Shown piece after piece: positions 2,469 to 42,645 of a stretch of 52,725 nucleotides of DNA. Source of the stretch: an uncultured Pseudomonadales bacterium (GTDB lineage Bacteria; Patescibacteriota; Microgenomatia; UBA1400; PJMF01). Within the stretch, counting starts at the first letter, position 1; each line of letters opens with the position of its first letter. The stretch lies in contig CAZOWX010000010.1 in NCBI GenBank assembly GCA_964583795.1, forward strand, positions 1 through 52,725, read 5' to 3'. The notes below the pieces were generated by a model. The model saw only the letters and a program-made list of their open reading frames with translations, ran no database searches and was not told the origin of the DNA. Made by a program: the position numbers and the translations under genes.

Positions 2469-3683
2469 TTATTCTTGTCTTTCTTTGAGTGTTACCTTGG
2501 TGGCCTTCTTTTCTCCATCGCGATAATACTCGAGCTCAATACTATCCCCGACCTTTTTGTTATTAATGAGCTTTGCCAGGTCAGTATCATCTTTCAGCTC
2601 TGTTCCATCAAACTTGGTAATGATGTCATCTGCTGTAATGCCGGCTTCACTTGCTGAAGTGCCTGGCACTACATCGACAACATACGCACCTTGTGGCAGG
2701 TTGTTCATCAGGGCGGTTTTCTTGGAAATCATCTGATACTGAACGCCGAAAAATGGACGCTCGAACTTCCCAGTGCGGTTGAAGTTGTCTAAGCTTTCTT
2801 TGATAATATTAATTGGAATGGCAAAACCAATGTTTTGCGCATTTCCGGCTACTGCTGAGTTGACGCCAATCACTTTCCCTTCTGAATTAAGCAGAGGGCC
2901 ACCAGAATTTCCCGGGTTAATTGCAGCATCAGTTTGAATTACGTTATCAAGTCGCTCCGAGCTAAAGCCACTTCCATCACTCGCGGTAATGCCTCTACCC
3001 AAACCTGATATGACTCCAGTAGTCACCGTGTGGCGAAACTCACCCAAGGCAGTTCCAATGGCAATCACTGATTGTCCGACTTTTAGCTGATCAGAATCGC
3101 CCAACTCAACAGCTGGCAGCTCGCCTTCAATCAATATAATGCCAATATCATTTGCTGGATCACGATACATTTTTTTGACGATAAATTGATTACCGTCTTT
3201 GTCTTCGACAAAGTACTCTGCTTGTGTATCAGAAATAACGTGTTTGTTCGTAATAATCAGACCAGCTTTTGAATCGACGACAAAACCGGTACCAATATCT
3301 TGAGGTTCGTTATCATTTTGATTGAGTCCTTGGTTCGGAGTGTCAAACGGTGAAAAGCCAAAGAAACCAAATGGAGACAAACGAGAGAACGGTTGATTTT
3401 TGCGCTTGATTGAAATAGTGACGACAGATTTCGAAGCTGTTTCTGAAATACTGACAATACTATTCTCTTGATTGTTGAGACGTGGTGTCTCTGGGGTTGA
3501 AGACTGCTGCTTTGAAGTGAAAGTTCGCTGAATCAAACCATCAAGTGGTTTAATCACAAATAATCGATCCGCAACTGCTCCTCCAAGAGCTGACGCGATG
3601 ACTAAAACGCTAACTGATAAACCCAATAGAAAGGGTTTTATTGGTGAGTGTGTGTGTTTGGGAAGTGATGATTGATCTTGCAT
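2469..3683 (-). CDS. htrA: HtrA/DegP-family serine protease with C-terminal PDZ domain and N-terminal TM anchor
   Basis: GTGFVVD..GLIITNKHVI, D.GIILIE and GNSGGPLLNSEGKVIGVNSAV form the catalytic triad context. A PDZ-like C-terminus follows. Confidence 0.9.
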   Translation of the reverse strand: MQDQSSLPKHTHSPIKPFLLGLSVSVLVIASALGGAVADRLFVIKPLDGLIQRTFTSKQQSSTPETPRLNNQENSIVSISETASKSVVTISIKRKNQPFSRLSPFGFFGFSPFDTPNQGLNQNDNEPQDIGTGFVVDSKAGLIITNKHVISDTQAEYFVEDKDGNQFIVKKMYRDPANDIGIILIEGELPAVELGDSDQLKVGQSVIAIGTALGEFRHTVTTGVISGLGRGITASDGSGFSSERLDNVIQTDAAINPGNSGGPLLNSEGKVIGVNSAVAGNAQNIGFAIPINIIKESLDNFNRTGKFERPFFGVQYQMISKKTALMNNLPQGAYVVDVVPGTSASEAGITADDIITKFDGTELKDDTDLAKLINNKKVGDSIELEYYRDGEKKATKVTLKERQE

Positions 3684-11138: not shown

Positions 11139-12056
11139 TTAGGAGGCTGAATTATAGCAAAGCTCGATCACGTTCTCAAGTAGGCAGATCACCGTCACTG
11201 GTCCTACTCCATTGGGAACCGGCGTGATGAATGTTGCAGCTGAAGCAATATGTTCAAAATCAACATCCCCTTGAGGAAAACCAGCATCGATAATGATGCT
11301 GCCACTGCGAATCATCGATTCAGTTATCAAGTTGTGTATGCCCGTTGAGCTAATAATAGTAGTGAACTCCCGAAGTTGTTGTGGTGAATTCAGCAGTGTG
11401 CCTAACTCTTTTTGGCCAGCTAACTGGACCTTTGGCCAGCCTAGATGTTGCAGTTCAAAAAACAGTGGAGTTCCCAAGAGTTCTGAGCGTCCTACAATTA
11501 TCGCTGGCTCTTGATCAAGCTGTTGAGGTGTGTGTTGTTGGACAGATTTCAGAATACTCAAGACAGCTCGGCACGTGGCTGGCAGAACCAGCTTTTGTTG
11601 TTGCCAAGTACCTGTTTTCACTGCTTCAAGTGTTTCTGGATGCAGACCATCAATATCTTTGTTGAGAGGAATTTCACTGGTCAATGTATGCCACCAGGTT
11701 TGAAAATCTTCAAAAGAATCAGCTGAATGCAGTTGGGCTTTTTGCCAGTTAGCACGCCAAGGTTTTTGAATGATGATGCCAGTAATTTGAGGATCATTCG
11801 CAAATGATTGAACCAGCTTTATAAGTTCTTCAATTGGTTTCGTTAAGCTGGTTTGAACGATGTCGTACACGATACCTAATCGAGCAGCGACGGTTTGTTT
11901 TTCTTGAGAGTAGACCAGTCCGCCTTGATCTTCAGTGAAGACCAAACAGCCCACATGCGGAGTGATGCCTGGCACAGTTGATTTGAGCTGGTGGATGCGA
12001 GCGAGCAACTGTGCCTCTTTTTGGGCTGCAAACTGCTTGCCATCGAAAATTAACAT
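11139..12056 (-). CDS. folD: bifunctional methylene-THF dehydrogenase / methenyl-THF cyclohydrolase
   Basis: MLIFDGK.FA...., VGRSELLG.P and ITPVPNGVGPVT...LLENV. Confidence 0.88.
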   Translation of the reverse strand: MLIFDGKQFAAQKEAQLLARIHQLKSTVPGITPHVGCLVFTEDQGGLVYSQEKQTVAARLGIVYDIVQTSLTKPIEELIKLVQSFANDPQITGIIIQKPWRANWQKAQLHSADSFEDFQTWWHTLTSEIPLNKDIDGLHPETLEAVKTGTWQQQKLVLPATCRAVLSILKSVQQHTPQQLDQEPAIIVGRSELLGTPLFFELQHLGWPKVQLAGQKELGTLLNSPQQLREFTTIISSTGIHNLITESMIRSGSIIIDAGFPQGDVDFEHIASAATFITPVPNGVGPVTVICLLENVIELCYNSAS

Positions 12057-12133
12057 GTGGGTATTATAACGTAATTATTTGGGAAAATTGATTGATGTGG
12101 TTGAATTGACTACAAGTTCTCTTTTTCAACTCG

Positions 12134-12161
12134 CTACAAGCTACAGGCCTCAAGCTGCCCT
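12134..12161. repeat. 7-nt-phased tract, CTACAAG type
   Basis: ctacaag ctacagg cctcaag ctgccct. Confidence 0.75.
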
Positions 12162-12169
12162 CCTTCGTA

Positions 12170-12240
12170 CTTGAAATGATAACTTGACTGTTAGTCAGGT
12201 TTTCATTCAGGTTACTTTCGGCGGGCGAGCAAGTGACACG
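12170..12240 (+). repeat. ~70-nt structured repeat element, copy A (candidate small RNA or MITE core)
   Basis: About 77% identical by hand alignment to 34612-34681. It folds as nested hairpins, and the substitutions between copies stay paired only as G-U on the plus strand. Confidence 0.6.
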
Positions 12241-12289
12241 TGCCGTTCCCTTTCAAAGAGCTCTATTTGTCAGTAAATGCAACCAGTGA

Positions 12290-12375
12290 CCATTAATCCA
12301 CAATCCATAATCTACAATCTACCGTGTTCCGCGTAGCCTCTAGCGAAGTGGGATCATCCATCATCCATTATCATT
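12290..12375. repeat. 7-nt-phased tracts plus a solo copy of the cassette arm TCCATCATCCATTATC
   Basis: ccattaa tccacaa tccataa tctacaa tctaccg (12290-12324). The segment 12357-12372 is an exact 16-nt match to the right arm of the 24.2-24.6 kb cassette and overlaps the nfo stop codon. Confidence 0.8.
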
Positions 12376-13228
12376 GAATCAGTTTTTTCAGCCGGTCGAT
12401 GTTGGCTTTGTCAGGGCCGTGACCATCAAGTCCAGGGACTTCAAGAATCAAAGGGATTTGTTCGAGTTGTTTGAGGTTCAAAAAATGCTCAAGATCTTCT
12501 GTCGGAATACTGCCTTCACCAAGATTTTCGTGTCGATCTTTGTGTGAAGCAAAGGGATCGCGACTATCGTTGACGTGCACACACCCAAGTGATGCCCACA
12601 AATTAAATTTTTCAATTTCATCTTCTGCAATTCCAATTGATCCATCTGCATACTTTGATTTAGGATTCAGCTGATATCCCGCACAAAACGCGTGGCAGGT
12701 ATCAAAACACCACCCCAACCGTTTTGATTTCACTTGGTCCATGAGCCATCGAATATCTTCCAAATCTGTGGTGAGTTTACCGTTCTGGCCAGCTGAGTTT
12801 TCGATCAAAAATGTTGAATTTTCTGGAGAATTTTCTAAAATTGTGGTAATACTTTTCGCAACTTGGTTGCGCATTTTTTCCCAGCCTCGTCCTTGGTGAC
12901 TACCTAGATGGACGACTACACCGCTTCCCTTGATTTCGCTATCAAATTTCAGCTCATAAGTTAGTGCTGCAATCGATTTTTTCAGTGATTCTGGATTATC
13001 AGTTGCTAAGTTGACTAAGTACAATGCGTGAGTCACGAGTGGGGTGACTGGAAAATCCTTTTGAGCTTCAAATAGTTTTTTGGTATCAAAACTTTCGAGT
13101 GACGGTTTTTTCCATACTCGTGGACTAGCAGAAAAAATTTGAGCGCAGTTGGCTCCGATTTCATCTGCCCGTTGTATAGCTTTATGCAGTCCCCCTGCAG
13201 CACTGACGTGAGCTCCGAGTTTTCGCAT
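12371..13228 (-). CDS. nfo: endonuclease IV (AP endonuclease)
   Basis: GAHVS.AGG, Q.FS.SPR.W, the HA.YL.NLA series, HLGSH, NSAGQ, FDTCHAF and H.NDS. This is the TIM-barrel metal-site pattern. Confidence 0.93.
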   Translation of the reverse strand: MRKLGAHVSAAGGLHKAIQRADEIGANCAQIFSASPRVWKKPSLESFDTKKLFEAQKDFPVTPLVTHALYLVNLATDNPESLKKSIAALTYELKFDSEIKGSGVVVHLGSHQGRGWEKMRNQVAKSITTILENSPENSTFLIENSAGQNGKLTTDLEDIRWLMDQVKSKRLGWCFDTCHAFCAGYQLNPKSKYADGSIGIAEDEIEKFNLWASLGCVHVNDSRDPFASHKDRHENLGEGSIPTEDLEHFLNLKQLEQIPLILEVPGLDGHGPDKANIDRLKKLIQ

Positions 13229-13251: not shown

Positions 13252-13734
13252 TTAGTGTTTTGGTCTGCGGATAGCGCAAATGGTATTGTACCGTTTTGAA
13301 AGAATGATGTCACAAAGTGGTTGCTCGAACACTCCTCCCCCATTTGGGTGTTTTTTGCCATTTTTCCCATAACGTGAGGCATGAGCGATGAGATGTGTCT
13401 GCGTGTCAATGCACACTCCGACGTGCAGATTGTAGATGAGTGGATCTTGAATATGCTGTATCGGTCGAGGTCCAAGCAAAACAATATCCCCTCTTATGAG
13501 TTGTTCAACACTGTCTATCCGATCAACCCATACTCCTCGACCAGCACTACGACGATAGAGTTCGGCACTTCGCAACCACTTAGGTAGGCCAAAACCAAGC
13601 TCTTCTAAAAGTACGTGAGCAAAGAGTTCGCAATTAAAGTGCGGTTCATTGTCACGAAAACAACTACCACTGCTTAGAGGGCTCTGTGCATAACAATAAC
13701 TGACTTCACTCAGTGCTGGTGTAAATAGTTCCAA
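13252..13734 (-). CDS. NlpC/P60-like (C40) putative cell-wall hydrolase
   Basis: 160 aa. A Cys context (FNCELFAHVLL), GDIVLLG and a His context (LHVGVCI) resemble the NlpC/P60 catalytic pattern. The start codon is TTG. Confidence 0.5.
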   Translation of the reverse strand: MELFTPALSEVSYCYAQSPLSSGSCFRDNEPHFNCELFAHVLLEELGFGLPKWLRSAELYRRSAGRGVWVDRIDSVEQLIRGDIVLLGPRPIQHIQDPLIYNLHVGVCIDTQTHLIAHASRYGKNGKKHPNGGGVFEQPLCDIILSKRYNTICAIRRPKH

Positions 13735-18093: not shown

Positions 18094-18711
18094 TTATCGT
18101 TTTTTCTTAAGTGGACGTACCGCTTCAGAAGGATCAATTGGGGGACCATCTTGCCCAACTTCGGTTTGGTCCGATAAAGCTGCAATTCTTGGCGCTCTTT
18201 CATCATTTTTTCTTTTTCTATGTAATACATGAACGTGTACTGCCTGATGTAATTTTGTCAGTACAACAGCACTATCGTAAGCTGGTGTGTCTGGATGGAT
18301 CTCTGAAATGTCAATTCCATATTGATACGATAACCGCCGTAATAATTCTCGCCCTTTTGTGGAATTTGCGTCTATTTTGAGTTCTTTAACAAAAATTGAA
18401 ATAATAATCTCGGCAGCTGTAGTCACTACTAGAGCTCCTCCAAGGAAAGGTTCAACACTATTAGTCAATACAAGTGAAGCAACAGCTATCAATTCAACAA
18501 CACTAGCCGTAGTGATTCCTGTCAACCAAGGAATCTGCTTAAGTCGATCTATGTGTTTGTTAAGTTCAGCGCGAAAAGTTTGCCAGTCTTTGCGGTCCCA
18601 GTCCACTCGTGCCTCAATGTCGCTAAGCCAAGCAGCCATGACTTCTTCATCATGGGTTGCTGGATCTACTTCACCAAAAGTGTATCTAACCATAACTTCA
18701 TTATATCGCAC
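18094..18711 (-). CDS. hypothetical membrane protein (two central TM helices, basic C-terminus)
   Basis: 205-aa ORF. No family recognised. The start may be the downstream M at residue 7. Confidence 0.5.
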   Translation of the reverse strand: MRYNEVMVRYTFGEVDPATHDEEVMAAWLSDIEARVDWDRKDWQTFRAELNKHIDRLKQIPWLTGITTASVVELIAVASLVLTNSVEPFLGGALVVTTAAEIIISIFVKELKIDANSTKGRELLRRLSYQYGIDISEIHPDTPAYDSAVVLTKLHQAVHVHVLHRKRKNDERAPRIAALSDQTEVGQDGPPIDPSEAVRPLKKKR

Positions 18712-22709: not shown

Positions 22710-24209
22710 CTAATTTGTTAATTGTTTTTCTAAAGTTGTCTTTACACTTTGTGGATCGACTTTCTTACCGAGCTTTCTCATCACCTGACCCATCAAAAAG
22801 CCAATGATTTGCGTTTTTCCAGCTTGATAGTCAGTGACGGCTTTTGGCTGTTCTTTAATAATAGAAGCAATAATTGTTTCAAGTTCACTCGTATCGACTG
22901 TATCAACGTGGGTAAATTCTTCAAATGTTTTGAGTAACTTGTCTGGACTCTCTAGCAACTGCGTTGCAAGTTTTTTGTTGACTAATAAATTAGCAAGTTT
23001 ATTGACATCTTGTTTGTTTTGCACAAAAAGTTGAGCGATAGCTTCGAACTGTTGCGTTTGAGTTGGAGTTACCGTGAGTACTTGCGCATAGCGTTTTTCA
23101 ACTTGATACTCTTTTCCCCATCGTTCAACGATCTGATCGGGAAGCTCTGGGAGTTGACTCTTGAGTTCATCAATTTGTTTTTGAGTGAACAGTATTGGAG
23201 GTAAATCAGGGTCAGGGAAGTAACGATAGTCTTCAGCATCTTCCTTTGACCGCTGGGAGAAAGTTTCGCTTTTTTTTTCATTCCAACCACGAGTTTCCTG
23301 CGTTGGTACTTCTCCTTTTGCAAGGATTTTTGATTGACGATCAATTTCAAATGCAACTGCCTTTTCTAGAAACCCAAACGAGTTGATATTCTTTACCTCA
23401 ACTTTATACTTGGGTAAATCTTCTTCAGTGAGACGCTTGTTGCTTGTGGCTTGTAGCTTGAAGCTATCCAAGAGCGAGATATTTGCCTCCAAGCGCAGGC
23501 TTCCCTGTTCCATGTTGCAATCAGAGATGTCCAGGAATCGCAAAATTTGACGCAGTTTTTTACCATACGCTTTTGCATGTGCTGCACTGTGGATGTCCGG
23601 TTCAGTTACAATTTCTACTAGTGGGACGCCTCCTCTATTGAAGTCAACGAGACTCACTTTTTGTTCTACAATTTTTTCAGTAGGTCCTGAATATTCATGT
23701 CTCAAATTTTTTGTATTTTCTTGTGGAGTTCGACTTGACTTTTCAGGATGACGGTTTGCAGAATTAACCGAGATAGTTTGATGAATCAATTTTCCAGTAT
23801 CTTCTTCCAAGTGAATACGGCGAATACGCACCGGCCCTTCTTCTGTCTCCAGAATGCCATGTTCACAAAACGGAATATCGTACTGACTAATCTGATAGCC
23901 TTTTGGCAAATCAGGGTAGAAGTAGTTTTTTCGATCAAACTTGGAAAACAAGTTGATTGTACAGTTGAGCGCCAGTCCTAACTTAATGGTCCACTCAATA
24001 GCCTTTTTATTGGCAACTGGCAGCGCTCCAGGCATGCCAAGACACACTGGGCATGTGTAGACATTCGGTTTCGGAGCGTGGAAGGGATCATTTTTACAAC
24101 CACAAAACATTTTGGAATTAGTCTTTAGTTCGGCATGAACTTCCATACCGATTATTGGGGTATAGATAATGGATGATGGATGATGGATGGATGACTTTTT
24201 ATTTTTCAT
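22710..24209 (-). CDS. gatB: Asp/Glu-tRNA amidotransferase subunit B
   Basis: IIGMEVHAEL.T.SKMFCGC, FDRKNYFYPDLPKGYQISQ, HLEEDTGK, VDFNRGGVPLVEIVTEPD, DYRYFPDPDLPP. Its start forms an ATGA overlap with the stop of the upstream four-helix-bundle gene. Confidence 0.95.
   Translation of the reverse strand: MKNKKSSIHHPSSIIYTPIIGMEVHAELKTNSKMFCGCKNDPFHAPKPNVYTCPVCLGMPGALPVANKKAIEWTIKLGLALNCTINLFSKFDRKNYFYPDLPKGYQISQYDIPFCEHGILETEEGPVRIRRIHLEEDTGKLIHQTISVNSANRHPEKSSRTPQENTKNLRHEYSGPTEKIVEQKVSLVDFNRGGVPLVEIVTEPDIHSAAHAKAYGKKLRQILRFLDISDCNMEQGSLRLEANISLLDSFKLQATSNKRLTEEDLPKYKVEVKNINSFGFLEKAVAFEIDRQSKILAKGEVPTQETRGWNEKKSETFSQRSKEDAEDYRYFPDPDLPPILFTQKQIDELKSQLPELPDQIVERWGKEYQVEKRYAQVLTVTPTQTQQFEAIAQLFVQNKQDVNKLANLLVNKKLATQLLESPDKLLKTFEEFTHVDTVDTSELETIIASIIKEQPKAVTDYQAGKTQIIGFLMGQVMRKLGKKVDPQSVKTTLEKQLTN
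23683..23754 (-). mobile_element. 72-bp palindromic-repeat copy inserted in frame within gatB
   Basis: The termini ggtcctgaa...ttcaggatgacgg match the repeat at 34805-34855 (gatcctgaa...ttcaggatgacgac). The segment encodes RHPEKSSRTPQENTKNLRHEYSGP, 24 codons. Confidence 0.6.
24161..24195. repeat. left arm of cassette 1 (7-nt-phased tract containing a 19-bp perfect IR arm at 24162-24180)
   Basis: tatagat aatggat gatggat gatggat ggatgac. It lies within gatB codons 5-16. Confidence 0.9.
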
Positions 24210-24574
24210 TTTTTTTCTAACTTAAACTTTCTAAAAGCTCTAATTCTTTTAATAAGTATTACAATTTCATTAATCAATTCATCGTTTCGAAGCAATTGCA
24301 TTTTCTGACAGAAGTATAATTGTGACAAACATTCATATGCCGAATTAATTGCGATTTTTATATATTTGGTTTCCTCTTTAATCGATTCGCAACCACTTCC
24401 CTCAGCTATATTGCTGGAAATTGATAAACTTGATCGATTCATCTGGTCCCCAATTGATTTTTTATGTTCAATTGAAAATCGTTGGGTTAAATTAAAAATT
24501 TTAACTGCAAAATCGAGTGAGTTTTGCCAAATTTCTAATTTTTCAAAAGGTGCTCCCATCGGTCCATCATCCAT
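24206..24574 (-). CDS. four-helix-bundle protein (23S rRNA intervening-sequence protein / Avd-like family)
   Basis: FEKLEIWQNSLDFAVKIF.L...F........DQM.RSS.SISSNIAEG.G..S.KE...Y..IA..S..E. The start is more likely M6 at 24559, which leaves the IR arm outside the ORF. Confidence 0.85.
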   Translation of the reverse strand: MDDGPMGAPFEKLEIWQNSLDFAVKIFNLTQRFSIEHKKSIGDQMNRSSLSISSNIAEGSGCESIKEETKYIKIAINSAYECLSQLYFCQKMQLLRNDELINEIVILIKRIRAFRKFKLEKK

Positions 24575-24595
24575 TATCTATGATCTATATATCTA
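24561..24595. repeat. right arm of cassette 1 (19-bp perfect IR arm at 24563-24581)
   Basis: ggtccat catccat tatctat gatctat atatcta. The segment tccatcatccattatctat is the reverse complement of 24162-24180. Confidence 0.9.
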
Positions 24596-24596
24596 A

Positions 24597-25100
24597 TTAG
24601 TATATTTTTATATTATCTTGAATATCTGAAATTGTGATATTTGATTTTGTATTTTTATTTTTGATATACGTTTCGATATCTTTTTTAATTCCTGGTATTG
24701 TCAGTAAATCGAGTGCTTCTTGTGGTGTGACCCAGCGAAACTCTGAATGCTCATGCGATAATGTTGGCTTTTCTATTTGTGTTTCGCAGATGAAAGTGAA
24801 GCCATATAGTTCGGCATCAACATGCTTACTTCCCCGATAAATGTGCCAAATTCGATTCAATTTTTTTACTTTTAAATCAGTAATTCCGGTTTCTTCAAAG
24901 ACTTCTCGCTTCAACGCCGTTGCCAGCTCTTCATGATGGTCGATACGACCATAAATCATTTCCCAACTGCCGTGATTCACTTCTGTTGTAGCGCGTTTAC
25001 CGAGCAGAATAGTATCTGTCCCTTTTAGCTCGATTATTGCCCCAACCCCGATCATGAATGAGCCGATTTTTCGAATTTGATCTCTCATACTGATATCCAT
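24597..25100 (-). CDS. NUDIX hydrolase
   Basis: Nudix box GRIDHHEELATALKREVFEETGI. Confidence 0.9.
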   Translation of the reverse strand: MDISMRDQIRKIGSFMIGVGAIIELKGTDTILLGKRATTEVNHGSWEMIYGRIDHHEELATALKREVFEETGITDLKVKKLNRIWHIYRGSKHVDAELYGFTFICETQIEKPTLSHEHSEFRWVTPQEALDLLTIPGIKKDIETYIKNKNTKSNITISDIQDNIKIY

Positions 25101-25163
25101 CTATTCTCTATAATCCCTCACCTATTATCTATACATCCATCTTCCTCCACTCATTCCACTGTG
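25101..25163. repeat. 7-nt-phased tract (9 units) spanning the gatA-nudix spacer and the last 11 gatA codons
   Basis: ctattct ctataat ccctcac ctattat ctataca tccatct tcctcca ctcattc cactgtg. Confidence 0.8.
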
Positions 25164-26526
25164 TAGCTTTCTCAAACGCATCGCCGACTTTAATCGCAAG
25201 ATCTTCACGAAACATGGGGGCCACGATGTTCATTCCCAAGTAGAGATTAGTTTTTTCATCTTTATAGCATGGGACGTTAACACCAGGTAGTCCGGTCATG
25301 GAGCTTGGTTCAACCAGCATGTCTTCGAGCTCTCCAAACATGACTTCGCCATCGGTGACGCCAATCTTTTTTGCAAATCCTGGTGATGTTAGAGAGACAA
25401 GGACATCATATTTTTTAAACAACTGTTCAAAATCTTGTCGGAATTGAGTGCGTACTTTTTGAGCGAGGACATAATACTTGTCAGCGTACCCTTTACTGAG
25501 TGTATACGTTCCAAGCAAAATTCTGCGCCGTGCTTCATCACCAAAAAAAGAACGATCATTGCCATAGCGTACCCCATCATAGCGAGCCAGATTACTACTG
25601 ACTTCACTGCGCTGAATGACAGTGTAAATGGCGATTGCGTACTTTGGGTCAAGCGCTTGTGCTAATTCAACCTTTGCTCCTAATCCCTCAAGCACTTTTA
25701 ATGCTTGTTCAAACTGTGGTTTGACAGATGTTAGACCTGGGATATCCATATACAGCACTCCAACTTTGAGACCTTTGATGTTTTGATTCAAAAATTGGGT
25801 GTAATCAGGGATACTTTGTGGTGATGAGGTCCCGTCAAAAGGATCGTGACCAGCAATGGTATTGAAAATAATAGTGGCATCTTCTACCGTCTTGGTCATT
25901 GGTCCAGGACTATCAAGTGAAGATCCCATGGCGACCACTCCGTAGCGGCTCACTCTTCCATAGGTGGGTTTGAGCCCAACAATGCCACACCAGGCGGCTG
26001 GTTGACGAATTGAACCTGCTGTTTCTGAGCCGATTGCTGCAATACACATATTGGCAGCAACTGCTGCCGCACTGCCTCCAGATGATCCTCCTGGAAGGTG
26101 TTCTGGATTACGTGGGTTGAGCGTACGTCCGTATTGAGAAGTTTCAGTGGATGATCCGTGTGCCCAAGCATCAAGGTTGGTTTTACCGATGATCAGTCCT
26201 CCTGCTTCTTTGACCCTTTTCGTAACGGTTGATTCGTATGGTGGAATAAAGGTATCAAGAACGGTAGATGATGCCGTTGTACGAAGTCCTTTGGTTAAGA
26301 AGTTATCTTTCACCGCAATAGGAATGCCGGCGAGAGGCTGCGTTTTCGTTGGAATGAGTGATTTCGACTTGATTGCTTGTTCATCAAGAGTCAAAAACAC
26401 ATTCAGTTTTTTATTTTCACTTTCAATGTTTTTCATTGCACTTTGCCACAATTCAGCAGCACTAAACGTTTTATCTTTTAGCCCCTGAAGTGCTTGTTTG
26501 AGAGTAAGGTGTGCAAGAGATGACAT
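25129..26526 (-). CDS. gatA: Asp/Glu-tRNA amidotransferase subunit A
   Basis: Amidase signature GGSSGGSAAAVAA....A.GSETAGSIRQPA..CG.VG.KPTYG. Confidence 0.96.
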   Translation of the reverse strand: MSSLAHLTLKQALQGLKDKTFSAAELWQSAMKNIESENKKLNVFLTLDEQAIKSKSLIPTKTQPLAGIPIAVKDNFLTKGLRTTASSTVLDTFIPPYESTVTKRVKEAGGLIIGKTNLDAWAHGSSTETSQYGRTLNPRNPEHLPGGSSGGSAAAVAANMCIAAIGSETAGSIRQPAAWCGIVGLKPTYGRVSRYGVVAMGSSLDSPGPMTKTVEDATIIFNTIAGHDPFDGTSSPQSIPDYTQFLNQNIKGLKVGVLYMDIPGLTSVKPQFEQALKVLEGLGAKVELAQALDPKYAIAIYTVIQRSEVSSNLARYDGVRYGNDRSFFGDEARRRILLGTYTLSKGYADKYYVLAQKVRTQFRQDFEQLFKKYDVLVSLTSPGFAKKIGVTDGEVMFGELEDMLVEPSSMTGLPGVNVPCYKDEKTNLYLGMNIVAPMFREDLAIKVGDAFEKATQWNEWRKMDV

Positions 26527-27058: not shown

Positions 27059-27427
27059 TGAAAAAGGGAATAATTTGCAAGTATGTAGAATCTAAAGGAT
27101 GAGCAGTAATGTATAACAACACAACCACTCAACCACCGAACAACTAACAAACGAATCAACCATGCAACTAGCCAACCCATAAAGGGCTTTATCTTGACTT
27201 TCCAAATCATTTTGACAGTAACGATAATTTTTATCAGTATACTTAACAACCCTACTACACAACAACCTACCTCGCCGGCAGGCAGGCGTAACAACTTTTC
27301 GCGATAAGTACTACAGTAAAAATGTCTAACAAATCAACAATGACACTTATCTGCTGGCAAGCAAGCGAGTTGACCAACAAACTCATTCCCTTTGGCCTGC
27401 AATTATGAGACAATACCACCTTACCCT

Positions 27428-29185: not shown

Positions 29186-29632
29186 TCACATGCTTTCTGA
29201 AGCAATTTTTGATTCACTTGTGTTGCCCATTGAATCAACCGACACCTCGTACAATGCTTTTGCCGCCCTATATTCATTGATACTTCCAGCATTTTGCGGA
29301 TCAAATGTGAATTCAAGAAATGCGTCACCTTGAGCAGTGACAACTGCAAGATCTGGAGAGTATGTCAAAACTTGACTCTCTGCTTGAGTTTTACCATTTT
29401 CATCAAGGATTTTTAATTTCAGTATCATTCCATCACTGAGTTCTAGTTTGGTGATAGGAAACGTGGTTACTTTGTCAGCTTCAGTTGCTGTGTCTATTGA
29501 TGTTGGTGCGACCGCACTCTGTGACTGTGATTGTTTGTTCTGAGTCGTATCTGAAGATCTGTTGCACCCTGCTAGAAATAACACTGAGCTGATAACAATA
29601 ACTGAGAACAAATATTGATGAGTTCTTTTCAT
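29186..29632 (-). CDS. putative lipoprotein
   Basis: Starting at the ATG at 29632 gives MKRTHQYLFSVIVISSVLFLAGC, a signal peptide plus LAGC lipobox. The ORF sequence upstream of that looks non-coding. Confidence 0.6.
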   Translation of the reverse strand: MKRTHQYLFSVIVISSVLFLAGCNRSSDTTQNKQSQSQSAVAPTSIDTATEADKVTTFPITKLELSDGMILKLKILDENGKTQAESQVLTYSPDLAVVTAQGDAFLEFTFDPQNAGSINEYRAAKALYEVSVDSMGNTSESKIASESM

Positions 29633-29794
29633 AGAAGTGAAAAAATAAACATGTATAGTAGTATGATTGTAACGAAAGCGTTGTTGTGTGGCAATCAATA
29701 AGTATCTCAGAAGGTTGCAATGAGAAACAAAATTATTTGAAAATAACTGAAGTTTAGTTATGAAACAACAGCTCGACTTCAAAGATTGAAATGA

Positions 29795-32392
29795 TTATTT
29801 CTTTTCCAATTCTAGTTGAGCATTTTTAATTCCAACACTCACCGTAATTGCTTCATCATCAACCCGATCAAGCATGATCAGTGACAGGGGATCAAGCACA
29901 TCAATTTGAATGACTCGTTTGAGTGGGCGGGCGCCAAAGACGGGATCGTAGCCTTTGTCAGCTAGATACTTCTTTGCTGATTCAGTTATTTCCAGCTCAA
30001 CTCCTTGATCCTTAAGGCGCTGTTGCAAGTCTTCGAGTTGAATCGCCACGATCGATTCAATATGCTTGGCACTGAGTGCCTCAAAGAAAATGACTTGGTC
30101 GATGCGATTGAGAAACTCAGGTTTAAAAGAGTGATGTAATAAATCCCAGATCGATTTTTCTAAAGCTTGCTTATCCTTGTCCGATAATGTATCGGACTTC
30201 TCGTACGCTTCTTGGATTAAGTGAGCGCCAACATTACTGGTCATAATGATCACCGTATTTTTAAAGTCAACGGTTCGACCTTTGCCATCAGTCACTCTTC
30301 CTTCATCAAAAATCTGTAAAAATGTATTGAAAATTTGGGGATGAGCCTTCTCGACTTCATCAAGCAACAAAATTGAGTAGGGCTTGCGCCTCACTGCTTC
30401 GGTGAGTTGGCCGCCTTCTTCATAACCGACGTACCCTGGTGGGGCACCGATAAGTCGAGCGACTGAGTGTTGCTCAGAGTACTCGCTCATGTCAATTCGG
30501 ATAATCGCTCGCTCATCACTCAATAAAATCTCAGCCAAGGCTTTGGCGGTTTCAGTTTTCCCCACTCCAGTAGGACCAAGGAACAAAAATGTGGCTAGTG
30601 GTTTGCCTTGTTCAGCGATCCCAGTGCGAGCGCGACGAACGGCATTGGCCACTGCCTTGAGGGCTACTGCTTGACCAACAACTCTTTTTGATAAGTCATC
30701 CTCCAAGTGAATCAACTTTTGTGACTCACTTTTCACTAGGCGCTTGACCGGAATACCAGTCCAGCGTGCTACTATGGCAGCGATATCATCTTCTCCAACT
30801 TCTTCTTTAAGGAGTTTTTCTTCAACGGGAATGTGCTCCCATTGTTTTTGGGCCTGTGAAAGCTTTTTTTCTGCTTCAGGAATTTTGCCGTATTTGATCT
30901 CGGCAGCTCTATCGAGCTCAACATTGCGCTCGGCAATTTCCAGCTCACTGCGCAATTGTTCGATTTGTTGACGCTGCGATTGTACGGCTTGTAAAATCTG
31001 TTTTTGTTTATCCCAGCGGGACCGTGTTTGTTGCAGCTCTTCTTTTAAATTAGCAAGCTCATGCTCGATCTCATTTTTACGAGACTTTGCTTCTGGTGAT
31101 GATTCTTTCTTTAGGGCCTTTTCTTCAATTTCCAGTTGGGTGACTTTTCGCGCGAGTGTGTCGATGGTAATTGGGTCGGATTCTGTCTCGATTTTCAGTG
31201 CTGAAGCGGCTTCATCAACCAGGTCAATAGCTTTATCCGGTAAGAAGCGATCTTGGATGTAACGATCCGATAAAACTGCAGCTGCAACCAGTGCATCATC
31301 GGTAATTCGAATTCCATGATGAACTTCATACTTTTCTTTGAGTCCTCGTAAAATTGAGATTGTATCCTCCACTGTGGGTGCGTAAACCGGAACTGGTTGA
31401 AAACGTCTTTCGAGCGCGCTGTCTTTCTCAATATACTTACGATACTCATTTTGAGTGGTGGCACCAATGACTCTCAGGGCTCCGCGAGCCAGAGCGGGCT
31501 TCATCATGTTCCCGGCGTCGGTACTGCCCTCCCCTGCTCCTGCTCCAACAATCGTGTGCAGTTCATCGATGAATAGAATCACATTCCCTTCTGACTTGAC
31601 CGCTTCCTCAATGACATTCTTCATGCGCTCTTCAAACTCCCCCCGAAATTTTGCTCCAGCGAGTAATGATGAAATTTCGAGTGTCAAAATAGTTTTGTTT
31701 CTCAGTGACTCTGGGACGTCTCCTTGGACGATTCGAATGGCCAGCCCTTCGACTACCGCTGTTTTTCCGACTCCTGGTTCGCCAACTAAAACAGGATTGT
31801 TCTTGGTTCGGCGAGACAGTACCTGCATTACCCGGCGAATTTCTTGTTCACGACCAATGACTGGGTCAAGTTTCCCTTCGGTTGCCAAAGCGGTCAGGTT
31901 CGTTGTGTATTTTTCTAAGATCTTGTAGTTTTGATCGGAACTTTCGGGGTCTTGAGTGGCGTTTTGGTGGTGTGCCATAATTTTCTCCTTGATGCGCTCA
32001 TACGTGACGTCAAATGAGTCTAATATCTTTTTACTGTCTATGTCTGCTTTCGTCAATGCGAGCAATAAAATATCTTGGCTAATATATCCTTGATTGAGGG
32101 AGTTGGCGTTTTGTTGGGCTTCTTGGATGACACGAATAAGAGAAGTTGATGGTTTTGGTTCTGGTTGGGTTTCTGTAGTGGGGAGACTTTCTAACTTCTC
32201 ATGAATTGTCTGCTTGAGGCGCTGAGTGTCTTGAACTAGCTCATTGAGAAAATCTTGACTAATTCCTGAATTTTCAACTAACGCTTGCAATAGATGGAGG
32301 TTCGTGACCTCGCTGTGTTTTGCCTCTTGCGCGCTTTGGGCAGCTTCATTAAGAGTAAGTTGACTTGATTGGGTGAGTTTGGGCGATATCAT
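29795..32392 (-). CDS. clpB: ATP-dependent chaperone ClpB
   Basis: Two AAA+ modules ([18 protein letters not shown]) separated by a long coiled-coil M-domain. The start is set at the ATG at 32392; the TTG at 32410 lies inside the repeat tract. Confidence 0.97.
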
Positions 32393-32396
32393 AATT

Positions 32397-32431
32397 AACT
32401 CAAAGTTCAAAGCTCATAACTCAAAATTTAA
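32397..32431. repeat. left arm of cassette 2 (7-nt-phased)
   Basis: aactcaa agttcaa agctcat aactcaa aatttaa. The segment 32418-32429 (aactcaaaattt) is the exact reverse complement of 32847-32858. Confidence 0.8.
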
Positions 32432-32458
32432 CCACATGTTACCAATTTTTAAAAACAA

Positions 32459-32818
32459 TTACAGTGATCGTTTCATGGTCTTAATGCTAGATGCGAGCAT
32501 TCTTGCTAGTTCTTGAGCTTCATTTAGGAGTGGCGTAATTTTATCTTTATCAGCAAGATTTGCCTGTTCAAATAATTCTAGCCAATAAACGGTTTCGTTG
32601 GCACTTTTTAATGAAATTTCATAGTAACGAATAAATTCTTTTTTTGAACTTGAAGAAATTGCTTCATGAATATTGGCACCAATGCTAGTGCCAGAGCGAA
32701 GCAACTGATCTGATAATTTCCAGTAGATTGCTGAGTTAGGAAGTTGTTTAAAAAAAGAGATCACGTTTAGCGAAAATTGAAATGACCTCTCCTTAAGTAC
32801 ATTTTTCTTTTGATTCAT
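32459..32818 (-). CDS. four-helix-bundle protein (23S rRNA IVS protein / Avd-like family)
   Basis: ERSFQFSLNVISFFK.L.......LSDQLLRSGTSIGANI.EA.SS.SKKEFI....ISLKSANET.YWLEL. ATG at 32818; the ORF track extends to a TTG at 32833. Confidence 0.85.
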   Translation of the reverse strand: MNQKKNVLKERSFQFSLNVISFFKQLPNSAIYWKLSDQLLRSGTSIGANIHEAISSSSKKEFIRYYEISLKSANETVYWLELFEQANLADKDKITPLLNEAQELARMLASSIKTMKRSL

Positions 32819-32836
32819 TTCGTTTTTTACCAATAT

Positions 32837-32878
32837 TTGGAGCTTGAAATTTTGAGTTTTGAATTATGAGTTATGCGA
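32837..32878. repeat. right arm of cassette 2 (7-nt-phased), overlapping the htpX stop
   Basis: ttggagc ttgaaat tttgagt tttgaat tatgagt tatgcga. Confidence 0.8.
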
Positions 32879-33782
32879 TGCCTCTAAGAGCTTTAATTCT
32901 TTCTTCAACTGGAGGGTGGGTGTCAAACAATCCCGCAAACCAACTACGTCCGCCAGAAACATTTTTTAGAGGATTGGAAATATACAGATGAGCGGTAGCT
33001 TTATTGGCCGCTTCCAGCGGTTCTTGATCGGCTGAAATTTTTTCCAAAGCACTGGCTAAGCCTTCAGGATATTTGGTTATTGCTGCTCCTGAGGCATCTG
33101 CCAAGAACTCTCGACGGCGAGAAATGGCCAGTTGGATGAGTTGCGCAATAAGTGGAGATAAGAGTGCTAAAACTAATCCAGCAATGAAAAAAATGATTTG
33201 GAGTTGTCCAGCTCCTGAGTCTTTGTTACGACGGCCACCACCCCATGATGACATTCGTAACATCCAGTCTGCCATCAGAGCAATCAGTCCAACTAAAATG
33301 CTGACAATACTCATGAGGCGAATATCGTAGTTTTTAACGTGAGAGAGCTCATGAGCAATGACACCTTCAAGCTCAGTTCTGTTAAGTCGACTTAAAATTC
33401 CGGTAGTAGCACAGATCACCGCGTGATTTGGATCCCGACCGGTGGCGAATGCGTTCATCGCTGTGTCGTCAATCACATAAAGCTTCGGCAGTTTCATTTG
33501 TTGACTCATGCACAAGTTTTCGGTGACGGTATAAAAATCAAAAAACTCTTCACGCGTGGCTTCTCGAGCTCCAGAAATACCCAAGATAATTTTGTCCGAG
33601 AAGTAATACGAGAAGAAAGAGGTGATTCCAGAAAAAATAAAAGCGTATCCTACGACATCCAGCCCAAATCCAAAACCTCTGGCCATGATGTATGCTGCCA
33701 GCGCAATGAAGGTCACAAACCCTACAATAACAAGGGTAGACTTTTGTTTATTGGAATCGACTTGAGAGTAAAAATTTGCCAT
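32871..33782 (-). CDS. htpX: M48-family zinc metalloprotease HtpX
   Basis: HELSHVKNYD (HExxH), TM helices and a C-terminal HPP..ERI. Confidence 0.93.
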   Translation of the reverse strand: MANFYSQVDSNKQKSTLVIVGFVTFIALAAYIMARGFGFGLDVVGYAFIFSGITSFFSYYFSDKIILGISGAREATREEFFDFYTVTENLCMSQQMKLPKLYVIDDTAMNAFATGRDPNHAVICATTGILSRLNRTELEGVIAHELSHVKNYDIRLMSIVSILVGLIALMADWMLRMSSWGGGRRNKDSGAGQLQIIFFIAGLVLALLSPLIAQLIQLAISRRREFLADASGAAITKYPEGLASALEKISADQEPLEAANKATAHLYISNPLKNVSGGRSWFAGLFDTHPPVEERIKALRGIA

Positions 33783-34502: not shown

Positions 34503-34611
34503 AGTGACTCCTTATTTTTGTTCGATATTTTACTAAAGATGTACTTTGTATTATACGCTTTTTGAGTGAGTTCAACAACATTACATAAGCTTCAGGCTAC
34601 CATCCTACGCG

Positions 34612-34681
34612 CTTGATATGAAAACTTGATCATTTGTTGGGTTTCATTCAGGCTGCTATGGCGGGTACGGCAAGTGACACG
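34612..34681 (+). repeat. ~70-nt structured repeat element, copy B
   Basis: cttgatatgaaaacttgatcatttgttgggtttcattcaggctgctatggcgggtacggcaagtgacacg. It is the counterpart of 12170-12240. Confidence 0.6.
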
Positions 34682-34804
34682 AGCTATTTCTTTTGCTTAC
34701 TTTACCTGTCTGTACGCCACTCCTAAGAACGCAACAACTCAACAACATTACCTACTGAAGGCTTTACTACTATTGGATTGAGCAAAGCAAGTGGTCTGAC
34801 TTTA

Positions 34805-34855
34805 GATCCTGAATCCGTCTTGCTCGTTCCTCGCTAGACTGTTCAGGATGACGAC
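34805..34855 (+). repeat. CGTCATCC-hairpin repeat, TGAA-stem long-loop variant
   Basis: gatcctgaa-(28 nt)-ttcaggatgacgac. Confidence 0.8.
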
Positions 34856-34926
34856 TTTTTACTTTTCTTGTTTTTAAAATGTATTGTTACCCCAGACACT
34901 AATTCCTAATCGCTCGTCACTAGTTG

Positions 34927-34996
34927 CCAATCCACTATCCACATTCTACATTCCACATTCCATTATCCATTATCTATGCGTCTATAAATCCATCAT
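34927..34996. repeat. longest 7-nt-phased tract (10 units), includes a solo cassette-arm copy
   Basis: ccaatcc actatcc acattct acattcc acattcc attatcc attatct atgcgtc tataaat ccatcat. The segment 34961-34978 (cattatccattatctatg) matches the cassette-1 right arm. The tract runs into the dinB stop. Confidence 0.85.
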
Positions 34997-41837: not shown

Positions 41838-41841
41838 AAGT

Positions 41842-42645
41842 ATGAGTTTTTTTACTTTTATTCAAAGAGTACTGTTAAGTTCCTCTAAGATTGCGAATCA
41901 GCATTTTGGAAAAGTATCTTCTGAGTCTGTGAAGACAGGAGATAACAATCAAGTACTCACCCAAGCCGATCTTGATATTGGGCAGCATTTGATCAAAGAA
42001 ATCCAATCTGAATTTCCCGATTTTAATATTATCGATGAAGAAGCTGGAGTCATCGATAATGGTTCTTTATACACATGGGTGATCGACCCAATTGATGGCA
42101 CGAGCAACTTTGCCGCAGGCTTGCCAACGTATGGGGTGATGTTAGGCTTGCTCAAGGAAGAAAAACCAATTGCTGGTGGTATCGTACTTCCCTATTTTCA
42201 ACAGCTCTACATTGCCGAACATGGTTCTGGAGCATTTTGTAACGACAAACGAGTGCATGTCTCAAGTGAACAGAAGTTACTTTCTTCTTTGGTGGCATAT
42301 GGAATTGATGGTTATCAAGAAAATCCTACACGAACTGAGACAGAGATGCAGTTGGTGACCAAAGTAGTTCTTAATATTCGAAACTTGCGAACAACTAATA
42401 GTGCGTATGATATGGTTCATGTCGTTGATGGCCGATATGGAGCATTCTTAAATCAAACGACCAAAATTTGGGATAATATTGCATTTCACTGTTTAGTTGA
42501 AGAGGCTGGCGGTGTGATCACTGACTTTTGGGGGAAATCAATGGATTTTTCAAACCCTTTAACCAAAATTGAGCAGAACTTTACTGTTTGTGCCGGAGCA
42601 AAAGAACTTCATACCCAACTGCAAGCAATTATTCATAGCAGTTAA
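41842..42645 (+). CDS. suhB: inositol monophosphatase family protein
   Basis: IIDEE and WVIDPIDGTSNF motifs, plus WD..A. The start is set at the ATG at 41842, 4 nt after the upstream stop. Confidence 0.88.
   Translation: MSFFTFIQRVLLSSSKIANQHFGKVSSESVKTGDNNQVLTQADLDIGQHLIKEIQSEFPDFNIIDEEAGVIDNGSLYTWVIDPIDGTSNFAAGLPTYGVMLGLLKEEKPIAGGIVLPYFQQLYIAEHGSGAFCNDKRVHVSSEQKLLSSLVAYGIDGYQENPTRTETEMQLVTKVVLNIRNLRTTNSAYDMVHVVDGRYGAFLNQTTKIWDNIAFHCLVEEAGGVITDFWGKSMDFSNPLTKIEQNFTVCAGAKELHTQLQAIIHSS

What the first reader, a model, noticed from the sequence alone, without database searches (positions are those of the whole stretch)
12290..12375. Solo copies of the cassette-1 arm at the 3' ends of nfo and dinB, as possible footprints or landing pads
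TCCATCATCCATTATC (12357-12372) is an exact 16-nt match to the right arm of the gatB-proximal cassette, in the same orientation. It overlaps the nfo stop.

cattatccattatctatg (34961-34978) matches the same arm at 17 of 18 positions and lies 15 nt past the dinB stop.

In cassette 1 the arm lies 16 nt past the nudix stop. So in three cases the same motif sits immediately 3' of a minus-strand gene and opens a long spacer. One spacer contains a four-helix-bundle ORF, and the other two contain only repeat modules.

This fits decayed cassettes (a solo arm, by analogy with a solo LTR) or a preferred insertion or recombination site.
Basis: partly seen in the sequence, partly recalled or inferred. Interest (0 to 1): 0.6.

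Follow-up and report, generated by a model that had tools for sequence, protein, structure and literature searches.

The report
Ordinary heptamer-repeat tracts, not cassette footprints
The short motif next to nfo and dinB is one common variety of the 7-base tandem repeats that fill the gaps between genes in this small bacterial genome, so it is not the scar of a lost gene cassette.

Summary
TCCATCATCCATTATC is exact at 12357-12372 and in both arms of the four-helix-bundle (4HB) cassette. The dinB copy matches 17 of 18.

The motif is two units of a heptamer tract (unit TCYAYNN). This flavour ties as the commonest among about 270 period-7 tracts in this 1.58 Mb Patescibacteria genome. Of 50 tracts of the flavour, 38 share at least 16 exact bases with another.

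Both "solo arms" are the 3' tails of mosaic non-coding repeat elements. These elements fill lineage-specific inserts:
- nfo-folD: 314 nt here against 26 nt in the same-genus genome.
- dinB-lemA: 490 nt against 44 nt.

Neither spacer holds a 4HB remnant or an inverted partner. No relative has a 4HB gene at these sites, and the congener's empty sites lack the motif. The cassette arms are inverted, so a solo-LTR-type deletion cannot apply.

Tracts, cassette arms included, sit at the edges of inserted DNA with a fixed outward polarity.

Seen in passing:
- All nine 4HB genes lie between inverted heptamer arms, each of a different flavour.
- Tract-rich genomes of the order tend to carry several 4HB genes, but a planned replication did not reach significance.

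The parts
12353..12372 (+). Short heptamer tract (ATCATCC ATCATCC ATTATC, 2.9 units). This is the 'solo arm'. It overlaps the nfo stop codon.
   Evidence: TRF row; exact matches; sequence.
12293..12325 (+). Second tract of the same flavour and orientation in the same spacer (TCCACAA TCCATAA TCTACAA TCTACCG).
12301..12353 (+). Non-tract body directly 5' of the arm. It has an 85% paralogue at contig C16:7901-7953.
   Evidence: BLAST; alignment.
12100..12275 (-). Copy of dispersed module M1 (26 copies genome-wide). Its 3' CTTGNAG heptamer tail points towards the folD start.
   Evidence: nhmmer; alignment.
12057..12370 (.). nfo-folD spacer of 314 nt. The same-genus genome has 26 nt here. The TATAAT box and folD ATG are retained at the left end.
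12371..13228 (-). nfo (AP_endonuc_2 domain).
11139..12056 (-). folD (THF_DHG_CYH domains).
34928..34979 (+). Seven-unit tract of the same flavour. It ends 13-14 nt before the dinB stop.
34804..34985 (+). Composite dispersed element: a hairpin module, a T-rich stretch and the heptamer tail. A 91% copy lies at C30:13538-13728 and differs by exactly one 7-nt unit.
   Evidence: BLAST (161 nt, 91.3%); alignment.
34578..34693 (-). Second copy of module M1, with its tail towards the lemA start.
34503..34992 (.). dinB-lemA spacer of 490 nt. The same-genus genome has 44 nt here. The -10 box and ribosome-binding site of lemA are retained.
24161..24193 (-). Left arm of cassette 1. It lies inside the gatB open frame as called from ATG 24209.
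24557..24589 (+). Right arm of cassette 1. It matches the left arm at 28 of 33 positions and supplies the first ATG of the 4HB frame.
24206..24574 (-). Four-helix-bundle gene (PF05635, E 7e-26). It is absent from the same-genus genome, where nudix and gatB lie 2 nt apart.

Best explanation
The 'arm' is two adjacent units (TCCATCA, TCCATTA) of a heptanucleotide tandem tract. These are simple repeats of the kind called STRR in cyanobacteria, or long simple sequence repeats more generally. In this Patescibacteria genome the tracts come in about eleven flavours and lie mostly between genes.

The nfo and dinB copies are the 3' tails of two different tract-tailed, non-coding dispersed elements. Together with a third tailed element (M1) at the other end, they make up mosaic inserts. 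Each insert lies between the upstream gene's stop codon and the downstream gene's -10 box. The same-genus genome lacks these inserts.

The near-identity to the cassette arms arises for three reasons:
- Cassette 1 happens to be bracketed by the same flavour.
- The flavour uses a small vocabulary of units.
- Tailed elements are copied around the genome.

Shown here: tracts change length by whole units, because two paralogous copies differ by exactly 7 nt. Inferred: growth by replication slippage, and spread by recombination or an unidentified mobiliser. The inserts are most likely selfish or neutral filler. They are tolerated because they leave the neighbouring genes' signals intact, although they do reshape gene ends.
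For: - Period 7 stands out. There are 271 tracts at 16 of 21 self-matches, against 7-26 for periods 4-6 and 9-12.
- 217 of 270 tracts are mostly intergenic, where 18% of the genome is intergenic by my crude gene calls.
- 50 tracts have at least 3 in-phase TCYAYNN units, against 0.28 expected.
- The flavour holds 38 of 269 tracts and ties for commonest.
- 38 of 50 tracts share at least 16 exact nt with another tract, as do 59 of 1225 pairs. Six units make up 136 of 235 units.
- The dinB tract plus its adjacent module is 91% identical to C30, with a single one-unit indel.
- The body next to the nfo arm has a paralogue on C16.
- M1 has 26 copies, including one in each spacer.
- The window is collinear with G001:C1:60181-92719. 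Spacers there are 26, 44 and 2 nt, with TATAAT and the start codons conserved.
- A four-unit pattern of the flavour gives 85 overlapping matches in G000. It gives 0 in G001 and 0 in all 18 same-family genomes.
- G001 has 0 period-7 tracts in 80 kb.
- Neither spacer shows 4HB similarity: best tblastn E 0.28, and the profile scores 0.8 bits or less.
Against: - The exact 16-mer is somewhat commoner than independent draws of units predict. By hand's unit counts I expect about 1 adjacent TCCATCA-TCCATTA pair. One search shows 6. Some copies are therefore related by descent and are not independent.
- Tracts are not placed at random. They hug gene ends with a fixed polarity, which pure slippage does not explain.
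- No mobilising enzyme was found, so how the tailed elements spread is unknown.
- In one run a contig spans the whole nfo spacer with 0 gaps. No unit-number variation was seen at this particular tract.
Confidence: 0.75

Rival explanations
1. Heptamer tracts are preferred recombination or insertion junctions. New DNA, whether cassettes or non-coding modules, enters next to a tract, so tracts end up at the outer edges of every insert.
For: - Outward polarity of flavour-A tracts: 30 against 10 spacers, and 18 against 2 within 30 nt of a gene end. The gene end is a stop in 13 cases and a start in 12.
- Flavours B, C and D lean the same way without reaching significance (10 v 3, 8 v 3, 12 v 4).
- M1's tailed 3' end lies within 90 nt of a gene end in 16 of 25 copies. 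Its 5' end does so in 2 of 24.
- Cassette arms obey the same polarity.
- In run X4 a contig matches only from 12380 rightwards and carries 296 unmatched letters where the spacer should be. In X1 a divergent stretch of nfo meets an identical spacer.
Against: - The motif is missing from the compact sites of the same-genus genome.
- Nine cassettes use nine flavours, so there is no common core site.
- G000 has no Y1 transposase and no reverse transcriptase. It has two tyrosine recombinases, against three in tract-free G001.
- Ancestral spacers of 2-44 nt mean that any insert must abut both genes.
- Metagenome contigs can break or mis-join at repeats.
Confidence: 0.12
2. The tracts are cis-acting signals read on RNA or DNA by a binding protein. 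This was proposed for the TAACTGA repeats of Beggiatoaceae. Under this reading their placement at gene ends is functional.
For: - Placement within tens of bases of start and stop codons.
- Precedent: TAACTGA repeats mostly lie a few nucleotides upstream of start codons and overlap upstream stops (PMC4679880; abstract and passages read).
- In X1 no difference is listed between 12040 and 12412, while nfo carries many just beyond (first 40 of 636 rows shown).
Against: - Eleven or more unrelated flavours would need many readers, or none.
- Tracts are absent from the same-genus genome, which has the same genes.
- Consensus scans of the two spacers found no terminator-like sites, and promoter-like sites at the level of shuffled sequence.
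- Predicted pairing of the tracts is no higher than in the rest of the spacer.
Confidence: 0.08
3. The nfo and dinB tracts are the surviving arms of 4HB cassettes that have decayed or been deleted.
For: - Same flavour, orientation and position relative to a minus-strand stop codon as the right arm of cassette 1.
- One 4HB gene elsewhere in the genome carries an internal stop, so cassettes do decay.
- Tract density and 4HB gene number rise together across 28 genomes of the order.
Against: - No coding remnant and no inverted partner.
- The far end of each spacer has a different flavour, as the tail of M1.
- The arms are inverted, so arm-to-arm recombination cannot delete the interior.
- About 270 tracts stand against 18 cassette arms.
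- None of 2197 open frames of at least 60 aa around nfo (61 loci) and dinB (13 loci) in relatives matches a 4HB profile. The same profile finds 23 of 24 control loci.
Confidence: 0.05

Closest known systems
Short tandemly repeated repetitive (STRR) heptamers of heterocystous cyanobacteria, and long simple sequence repeats of 5-11 nt in prokaryotes
   Same: Both consist of tandem 7-nt units in several flavours. Both are mostly intergenic, occur in hundreds of copies and have a sporadic phylogenetic distribution. Slippage is the presumed engine. The LSSR survey is known to me only as summarised in the Introduction of PMC4679880. STRR is recalled, not read here.
   Different: The host is a 1.58 Mb Patescibacteria genome without photosystem genes. 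The tracts are short and degenerate, and they serve as tails of composite dispersed elements and as inverted arms around small genes.
Intergenic TAACTGA direct repeats of marine Beggiatoaceae, some Cyanobacteria and Bacteroidetes (MacGregor 2015, PMC4679880)
   Same: Heptamer direct repeats of 2-6 units that lie a few nucleotides from start codons or overlap upstream stops. They have a preferred orientation and a patchy distribution that suggests horizontal spread (abstract and passages read).
   Different: There one heptamer dominates and related ones are rare. Here many flavours coexist, and about half of the gene ends next to flavour-A tracts are stops. That paper's supplementary tables could not be seen.
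23S rRNA intervening sequences that carry a PF05635 open frame
   Same: A PF05635 gene sits between inverted flanks predicted to pair into a long stem. RNase III is encoded in the genome.
   Different: The cassettes lie between protein-coding genes, not inside an rRNA gene. Excision was not tested. This comparison concerns the cassette, not the solo tracts.
Solo LTRs, MITEs, and REP or BIME elements
   Same: Short, non-coding, multi-copy elements that fill intergenic space. M1 has 26 copies, and the roughly 70-nt hairpin module has about 49 BLAST matches.
   Different: Solo LTRs need direct repeats, and the arms here are inverted. No Y1 (RAYT-type) transposase was found in G000. Target-site duplications were not looked for.

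Membership tests
Heptanucleotide tandem tracts (STRR / LSSR type) | Head-to-tail units of 7 nt, in excess over other periods | tested here: met
   96 period-7 tracts at 18 of 21 self-matches, against 2-7 for periods 4-6 and 9-12. At 16 of 21 the counts are 271 against 7-26. TRF rows.
Heptanucleotide tandem tracts (STRR / LSSR type) | Mostly intergenic | tested here: met
   217 of 270 tracts lie mostly outside called genes, while 18.2% of the genome is intergenic by a crude gene caller.
Heptanucleotide tandem tracts (STRR / LSSR type) | Sporadic distribution among relatives | tested here: met
   0 tracts in 80 kb of the same-genus genome against 17 per 100 kb in G000. Across 28 genomes of the order the range is 0-50 per 100 kb.
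Heptanucleotide tandem tracts (STRR / LSSR type) | Unit number changes by whole units (slippage) | tested here: inconclusive
   The paralogous copies at C10:34804-34985 and on C30 differ by exactly one 7-nt unit. The one contig that spans the nfo tract in another sample shows 0 gaps.
Solo-LTR-type footprint of a cassette | The parent element is flanked by direct repeats, so that recombination leaves one copy | tested here: not met
   The arms of cassette 1 and of all nine 4HB cassettes are inverted.
Solo-LTR-type footprint of a cassette | Remnant of the interior, or an occupied site in relatives | tested here: not met
   No 4HB similarity in the spacers. No 4HB frame near nfo or dinB in 74 loci of relatives. 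G001's spacers are 26 and 44 nt.
Site-specific landing pad (att or attC type) | The core motif is present at unoccupied sites | tested here: not met
   The G001 sequences between nfo and folD and between nudix and gatB lack the tract. The end of dinB there resembles it over only about 1.5 units.
Site-specific landing pad (att or attC type) | The same core at all cassette junctions | tested here: not met
   Nine cassettes have nine flavours.
Site-specific landing pad (att or attC type) | A dedicated recombinase | tested here: inconclusive
   G000 has two PF00589 matches against three in tract-free G001. It has no PF01797 and no PF00078. Other enzyme families were not searched.
23S rRNA intervening sequence (considered for cassette 1 only) | Lies inside a 23S rRNA gene and is excised by RNase III | tested here: not met
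   The cassette lies between nudix and gatB. Rfam finds only tRNAs in the window. Excision is not testable here.

The most novel reading that the evidence does not exclude
Heptamer tracts and small IVS-type genes (PF05635 four-helix bundles, and at least one PDDEXK_3 gene) may form one system.

Under this reading the genes travel as cassettes bracketed by inverted heptamer tracts. The tracts pair on the transcript into an RNase III-type stem, which restores the old stop-to-start neighbourhood of the flanking genes. The far more numerous single tracts at the edges of non-coding inserts would then be products or half-sites of the same process, perhaps recognised by the 4HB proteins.

In support:
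- 9 of 9 4HB genes lie between inverted arms, against 4 of 210 control genes.
- Heptamer-periodic arms also flank 4HB genes in relatives. 10 of 18 loci have an inverted-repeat score of at least 13, and 9 of those 10 have a lag-7 self-match of at least 0.6.
- Arms and solo tracts share one polarity.
- Tract density and 4HB count correlate at rho 0.75 across 28 genomes.

Against:
- The planned replication was weak: 4 of 10 against 0 of 10 tract-rich genomes, one-sided p 0.12.
- Five 4HB-rich genomes showed no tract in 25-40 kb.
Probability: 0.2. Interest if true: 0.7.

Novelty: new member of a known kind. Interest (0 to 1): 0.35.

Why it matters
The finding as stated is ordinary for this genome. 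It would be a mistake to annotate these motifs as cassette scars or attachment sites.

The setting is less ordinary. This ultra-small Patescibacteria genome is the largest of the 31 compared. It carries a species-level burst of heptamer-tailed mosaic repeats that its congener lacks entirely.

That pair of genomes gives clean filled and empty sites. They could be used to study how simple repeats invade compact genomes, how they rewrite gene ends, and whether IVS-type four-helix-bundle genes are linked to them.

Tried and rejected
- Reverse transcriptase as a maker of templated repeats: no PF00078 in G000, G030, G029 or G023. The only match is in tract-free G001.
- REP-type Y1 transposase: none in G000.
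- Tyrosine recombinases: no excess.
- Terminator or promoter role: the consensus scans of the two spacers found no terminator-like sites, and promoter-like sites at the level of shuffled sequence.
- Structured RNA: Rfam at gathering thresholds finds only four tRNAs in the window. RNAalifold on 26 M1 copies returned no consensus structure. In folds of the two spacers the tracts are paired no more than the rest: 0.62 against 0.58, and 0.52 against 0.56.
- An inverted partner for the nfo arm: the predicted partner at 12090-12104 is not a tract of this flavour by eye.
- A general rule that the pyrimidine-rich strand points outward: it holds in G000 (71 against 32). It fails for period-8 tracts (9 against 15) and in G030 (8 against 8). 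In G030 my gene caller also placed 55 of 80 tracts inside genes and is probably unreliable.
- Replication of the link between tracts and 4HB genes: not significant.
- Seeding of tracts from the ancestral gene ends: the resemblances in G001 are too short to count.
- Read laying: in X1 no listed contig piece covers 24012-25426, so cassette 1 is neither shown present nor absent there. Joints with sides under 30 letters were ignored, as the tool advises. The letters of the unmatched part of the X4 contig were not shown.
- Literature searches found no paper linking PF05635 genes to heptamer repeats, and none on such repeats in Patescibacteria. These searches cover only the held library.
- Supplementary tables of PMC4679880 were not available.
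- The script stopped with an error after flavour G. Flavours H and I were not analysed for polarity.
- In one search I entered 5 for G007's 4HB count where one search shows 3 over the cut-off. One search repeats the test with 3.

Full report
**Observation.**
- TCCATCATCCATTATC stands at 12357-12372 on the + strand. It overlaps two bases of the nfo stop codon at 12371-12373.
- The same 16 bases form part of the right arm of the four-helix-bundle (4HB) cassette at 24563-24578. Their reverse complement is part of the left arm at 24165-24180.
- The match to the left arm extends to 20 bases.
- The dinB copy at 34961-34978 matches the right arm at 17 of 18 positions. It ends 14 nt before the dinB stop.
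- The genes are as named: nfo, folD, dinB, lemA, nudix and gatB. The cassette gene is a PF05635 (23S_rRNA_IVP) protein with E 7e-26.
- Against shuffled sequence the motif is clearly enriched: 6 matches against 0.5 expected.

**What the motif is.** The window is contig C10 of a 1.58 Mb genome in 44 contigs, rated 97% complete. It has no photosynthetic reaction-centre gene. Its relatives have genomes of 0.8-1.4 Mb. The record titles of the nearest nfo relatives mostly name Patescibacteria, Pacebacteria or Paceibacterota, though some titles carry other labels.

The genome is full of short tandem tracts with a 7-base period.
- At 16 of 21 self-matches there are 271 period-7 tracts. Periods 4-6 and 9-12 give 7-26, and period 8 gives 120.
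- 217 of 270 tracts lie mostly between genes.
- Grouped by consensus unit they fall into about eleven flavours. The flavour of the 'arm' (unit TCYAYNN) holds 38 of 269 tracts and ties for first place with two others.
- A stricter count finds 50 tracts with at least three in-phase TCYAYNN units, where 0.28 are expected.
- Six units make up 136 of the 235 units in these tracts. TCCATCA and TCCATTA are among the six.
- 38 of the 50 tracts share at least 16 exact bases with some other tract.

A 16-base identity between two tracts of this flavour is therefore the rule.

The exact 16-mer occurs six times in the genome. Three copies are in the window, and three are on contigs C1, C16 and C30. None of the three outside copies lies next to any of the nine PF05635 genes. 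Five of the six end within about 20 nt of a gene boundary: three at stops and two at starts.

**What the two spacers are.** The window is collinear with 32.5 kb of the same-genus genome G001. The spacers compare as follows:

| Gene pair | G001 | This genome |
|---|---|---|
| nfo-folD | 26 nt | 314 nt |
| dinB-lemA | 44 nt | 490 nt |
| nudix-gatB | 2 nt | 387 nt, holding the 4HB gene |

In both 'solo' cases the downstream gene's TATAAT box and start region are still recognisable at the far end. The extra DNA therefore lies between the upstream stop codon and the downstream promoter.

The extra DNA is a mosaic of dispersed repeats.
- Both spacers contain a copy of a roughly 100-nt module, M1. 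It has 26 copies in the genome, and its 3' end is a CTTGNAG heptamer tail pointing at folD or lemA.
- The dinB tract is the 3' tail of a roughly 185-nt composite element: a hairpin module, a T-rich stretch and the tract.
- A second copy of that element lies on contig C30. It is 91% identical and differs by exactly one 7-base unit. The C30 copy carries the exact 16-mer.
- The 53 bases directly 5' of the nfo arm have an 85% paralogue on contig C16.

Each spacer is thus made of tailed elements lying head to head with their tails outward.

*Decayed cassette.*
- Nine 4HB proteins and a profile built from them find nothing in either spacer. The best tblastn E is 0.28 in a database of two sequences, and profile scores are 0.8 bits or less.
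- Neither spacer has an inverted partner of the tract.
- In relatives, the frame search covered 61 nfo loci with up to 3 kb of flank and 13 dinB loci with 1.5 kb of flank. None of the 2197 open frames of at least 60 aa matches the 4HB profile. The same profile recovers 23 of 24 control loci.
- Where folD follows nfo on the same strand, the gap is 63 nt or less in 24 of 38 loci.
- The solo-LTR analogy also fails on logic. Solo LTRs arise by recombination between direct repeats. These arms are inverted, so recombination between them would flip the interior and not remove it.

*Pre-existing landing pad.*
- The compact sites of G001 lack the tract.
- G001 has none of the four-unit patterns anywhere and no period-7 tract in 80 kb.
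- The nine cassettes of this genome are flanked by nine different flavours, so there is no shared core site.
- I found no reverse transcriptase and no Y1 transposase in this genome. It has two tyrosine recombinases, against three in tract-free G001.

The context is not random.
- For flavour A, the 3' end of the TCCAT strand is the end nearer to a gene in 30 spacers, against 10 for the 5' end (p 0.002).
- It lies within 30 nt of a gene boundary in 18 cases, against 2 for the 5' end.
- That boundary is a stop codon 13 times and a start 12 times.
- Flavours B, C and D lean the same way without reaching significance (10 v 3, 8 v 3, 12 v 4).
- M1's tailed 3' end lies within 90 nt of a gene end in 16 of 25 copies. 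Its 5' end does so in 2 of 24.
- The arms of the cassettes have the same outward polarity.

Part of this is trivial, since ancestral gaps of 2-44 nt force any insert to touch both genes. The fixed polarity is not explained by slippage alone. It keeps a recombination-junction reading alive at low probability. A wider rule based on pyrimidine content holds in this genome but not for period-8 tracts or in G030.

**Population data.**
- In one public run a contig spans 11900-15370 with no gap, so the spacer exists elsewhere at the same length.
- In another run a contig matches only from 12380 rightwards and carries 296 unmatched letters where the spacer should be.
- Strains therefore differ from the end of nfo onward. 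The unmatched letters were not shown, so I cannot say what replaces the spacer.

**Comparison with what is known.** Tandem heptamers are a known kind of bacterial simple repeat.
- A survey summarised in the Introduction of PMC4679880 found heptamers the commonest class of long simple repeats and proposed polymerase slippage.
- That paper describes TAACTGA repeats in Beggiatoaceae, Cyanobacteria and Bacteroidetes. They lie a few bases from start codons, overlap upstream stops and have a patchy distribution.
- The STRR elements of heterocystous cyanobacteria are a recalled parallel that I did not read here.

The tracts in this window meet the defining features of this kind. The new elements are the host lineage, the many coexisting flavours, and the use of tracts as tails and arms. 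I found no paper on this in four searches of the held library.

**Side finding.**
- All nine PF05635 genes of the genome lie between inverted heptamer arms with inverted-repeat scores of 13-20.5. Only 4 of 210 other genes of 300-450 nt reach 13.
- Those four are a GroES-like gene next to a cassette, a PDDEXK_3 gene with AACGAAT arms, a GIY-YIG gene and one gene of unknown function.
- The transcript of cassette 1 is predicted to pair its arms (z -4.06). RNase III is encoded in the genome.
- 4HB genes of other genomes in the order also have heptamer-periodic inverted arms. 10 of 18 loci have a score of at least 13, and 9 of those 10 have a lag-7 self-match of at least 0.6.
- Across 28 genomes, tract density and the number of PF05635 genes rise together (rho 0.75). 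8 of 10 tract-rich genomes carry three or more such genes, against 0 of 18 tract-poor genomes.
- A planned replication compared ten 4HB-rich with ten 4HB-free genomes. It gave 4 of 10 against 0 of 10 tract-rich genomes, with one-sided p 0.12.
- Related genomes are not independent, and only 25-40 kb per genome was sampled. This is a lead, not a result.

**Verdict.** The reading as footprints or landing pads is not supported. The motif is an ordinary member of a genome-wide family of heptamer tracts. Interest in the finding itself is low to moderate. The genome-wide repeat system and its possible tie to IVS-type genes deserve a separate look.

Noticed in passing
window 24161-24589 and 32396-32873; G000 contigs C6, C7, C11, C12, C18, C37: All nine PF05635 four-helix-bundle genes lie between inverted heptamer-tract arms. 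Each cassette uses a different flavour and is wedged tightly between two genes. Only 4 of 210 control genes of similar size have such arms. Relatives' 4HB genes often show heptamer-periodic arms too.
   Followed up: partly
window 24165-24209: As called from ATG 24209, gatB reads through the left arm. This gives an N-terminus 11 residues longer than in the same-genus genome before the conserved PIIGME motif. The 4HB stop overlaps that ATG (ATGA).
   Followed up: partly
G000 C24:19617-20021 (L236:318-722): A PDDEXK_3 (GxxExxY-type) gene is flanked by inverted AACGAAT heptamer arms. This is a second small-gene family carried in the same kind of cassette.
   Followed up: partly
window 12100-12275 and 34578-34693: Module M1 is about 100 nt long, has 26 copies and is well conserved. 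It contains an AAGGAGG-like stretch and ends in a CTTGNAG heptamer tail that usually points at a nearby gene end. It has no Rfam match, and RNAalifold found no consensus fold.
   Followed up: partly
window 34795-34866: A hairpin module of about 70 nt (ATCCTGAA...TTCAGGAT followed by a T-rich run) has about 49 further BLAST matches across the genome.
   Followed up: no
window 27175-27372: A 198-nt stretch of an intergenic spacer is skipped by contigs in three public runs from different studies. This is a strain-level insertion or deletion in mosaic spacer DNA.
   Followed up: no
window 12413-12803: In run X1 the first 40 listed differences put 36 in this 390-nt part of nfo and none in the adjacent spacer at 12040-12412. 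That suggests a recombination boundary near the 3' end of nfo.
   Followed up: no
window 29186-32833, 39576-48146, 13252-13734, 18094-18711, 2469-3683: These genes are present here but had no match in the 80 kb of the same-genus genome that I searched (G001:C1:30001-110000, which covers the syntenic region). They are a ClpB-like ATPase with a 198-aa frame and a second 4HB cassette, an 8.6-kb island, two frames without a Pfam match next to nfo and further on, and a trypsin-PDZ protease.
   Followed up: partly
G000 genome-wide: Period-8 tracts are also in excess: 120 against 7-26 for other periods. Some period-7 tracts are CCCTAAA repeats (for example C21:1408-1456), the same unit as plant telomeres, presumably by coincidence.
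   Followed up: no
window 32847-32879: The right arm of the second cassette overlaps the stop codon of the upstream gene at 32871-32873. This is the same arrangement as the nfo tract.
   Followed up: no
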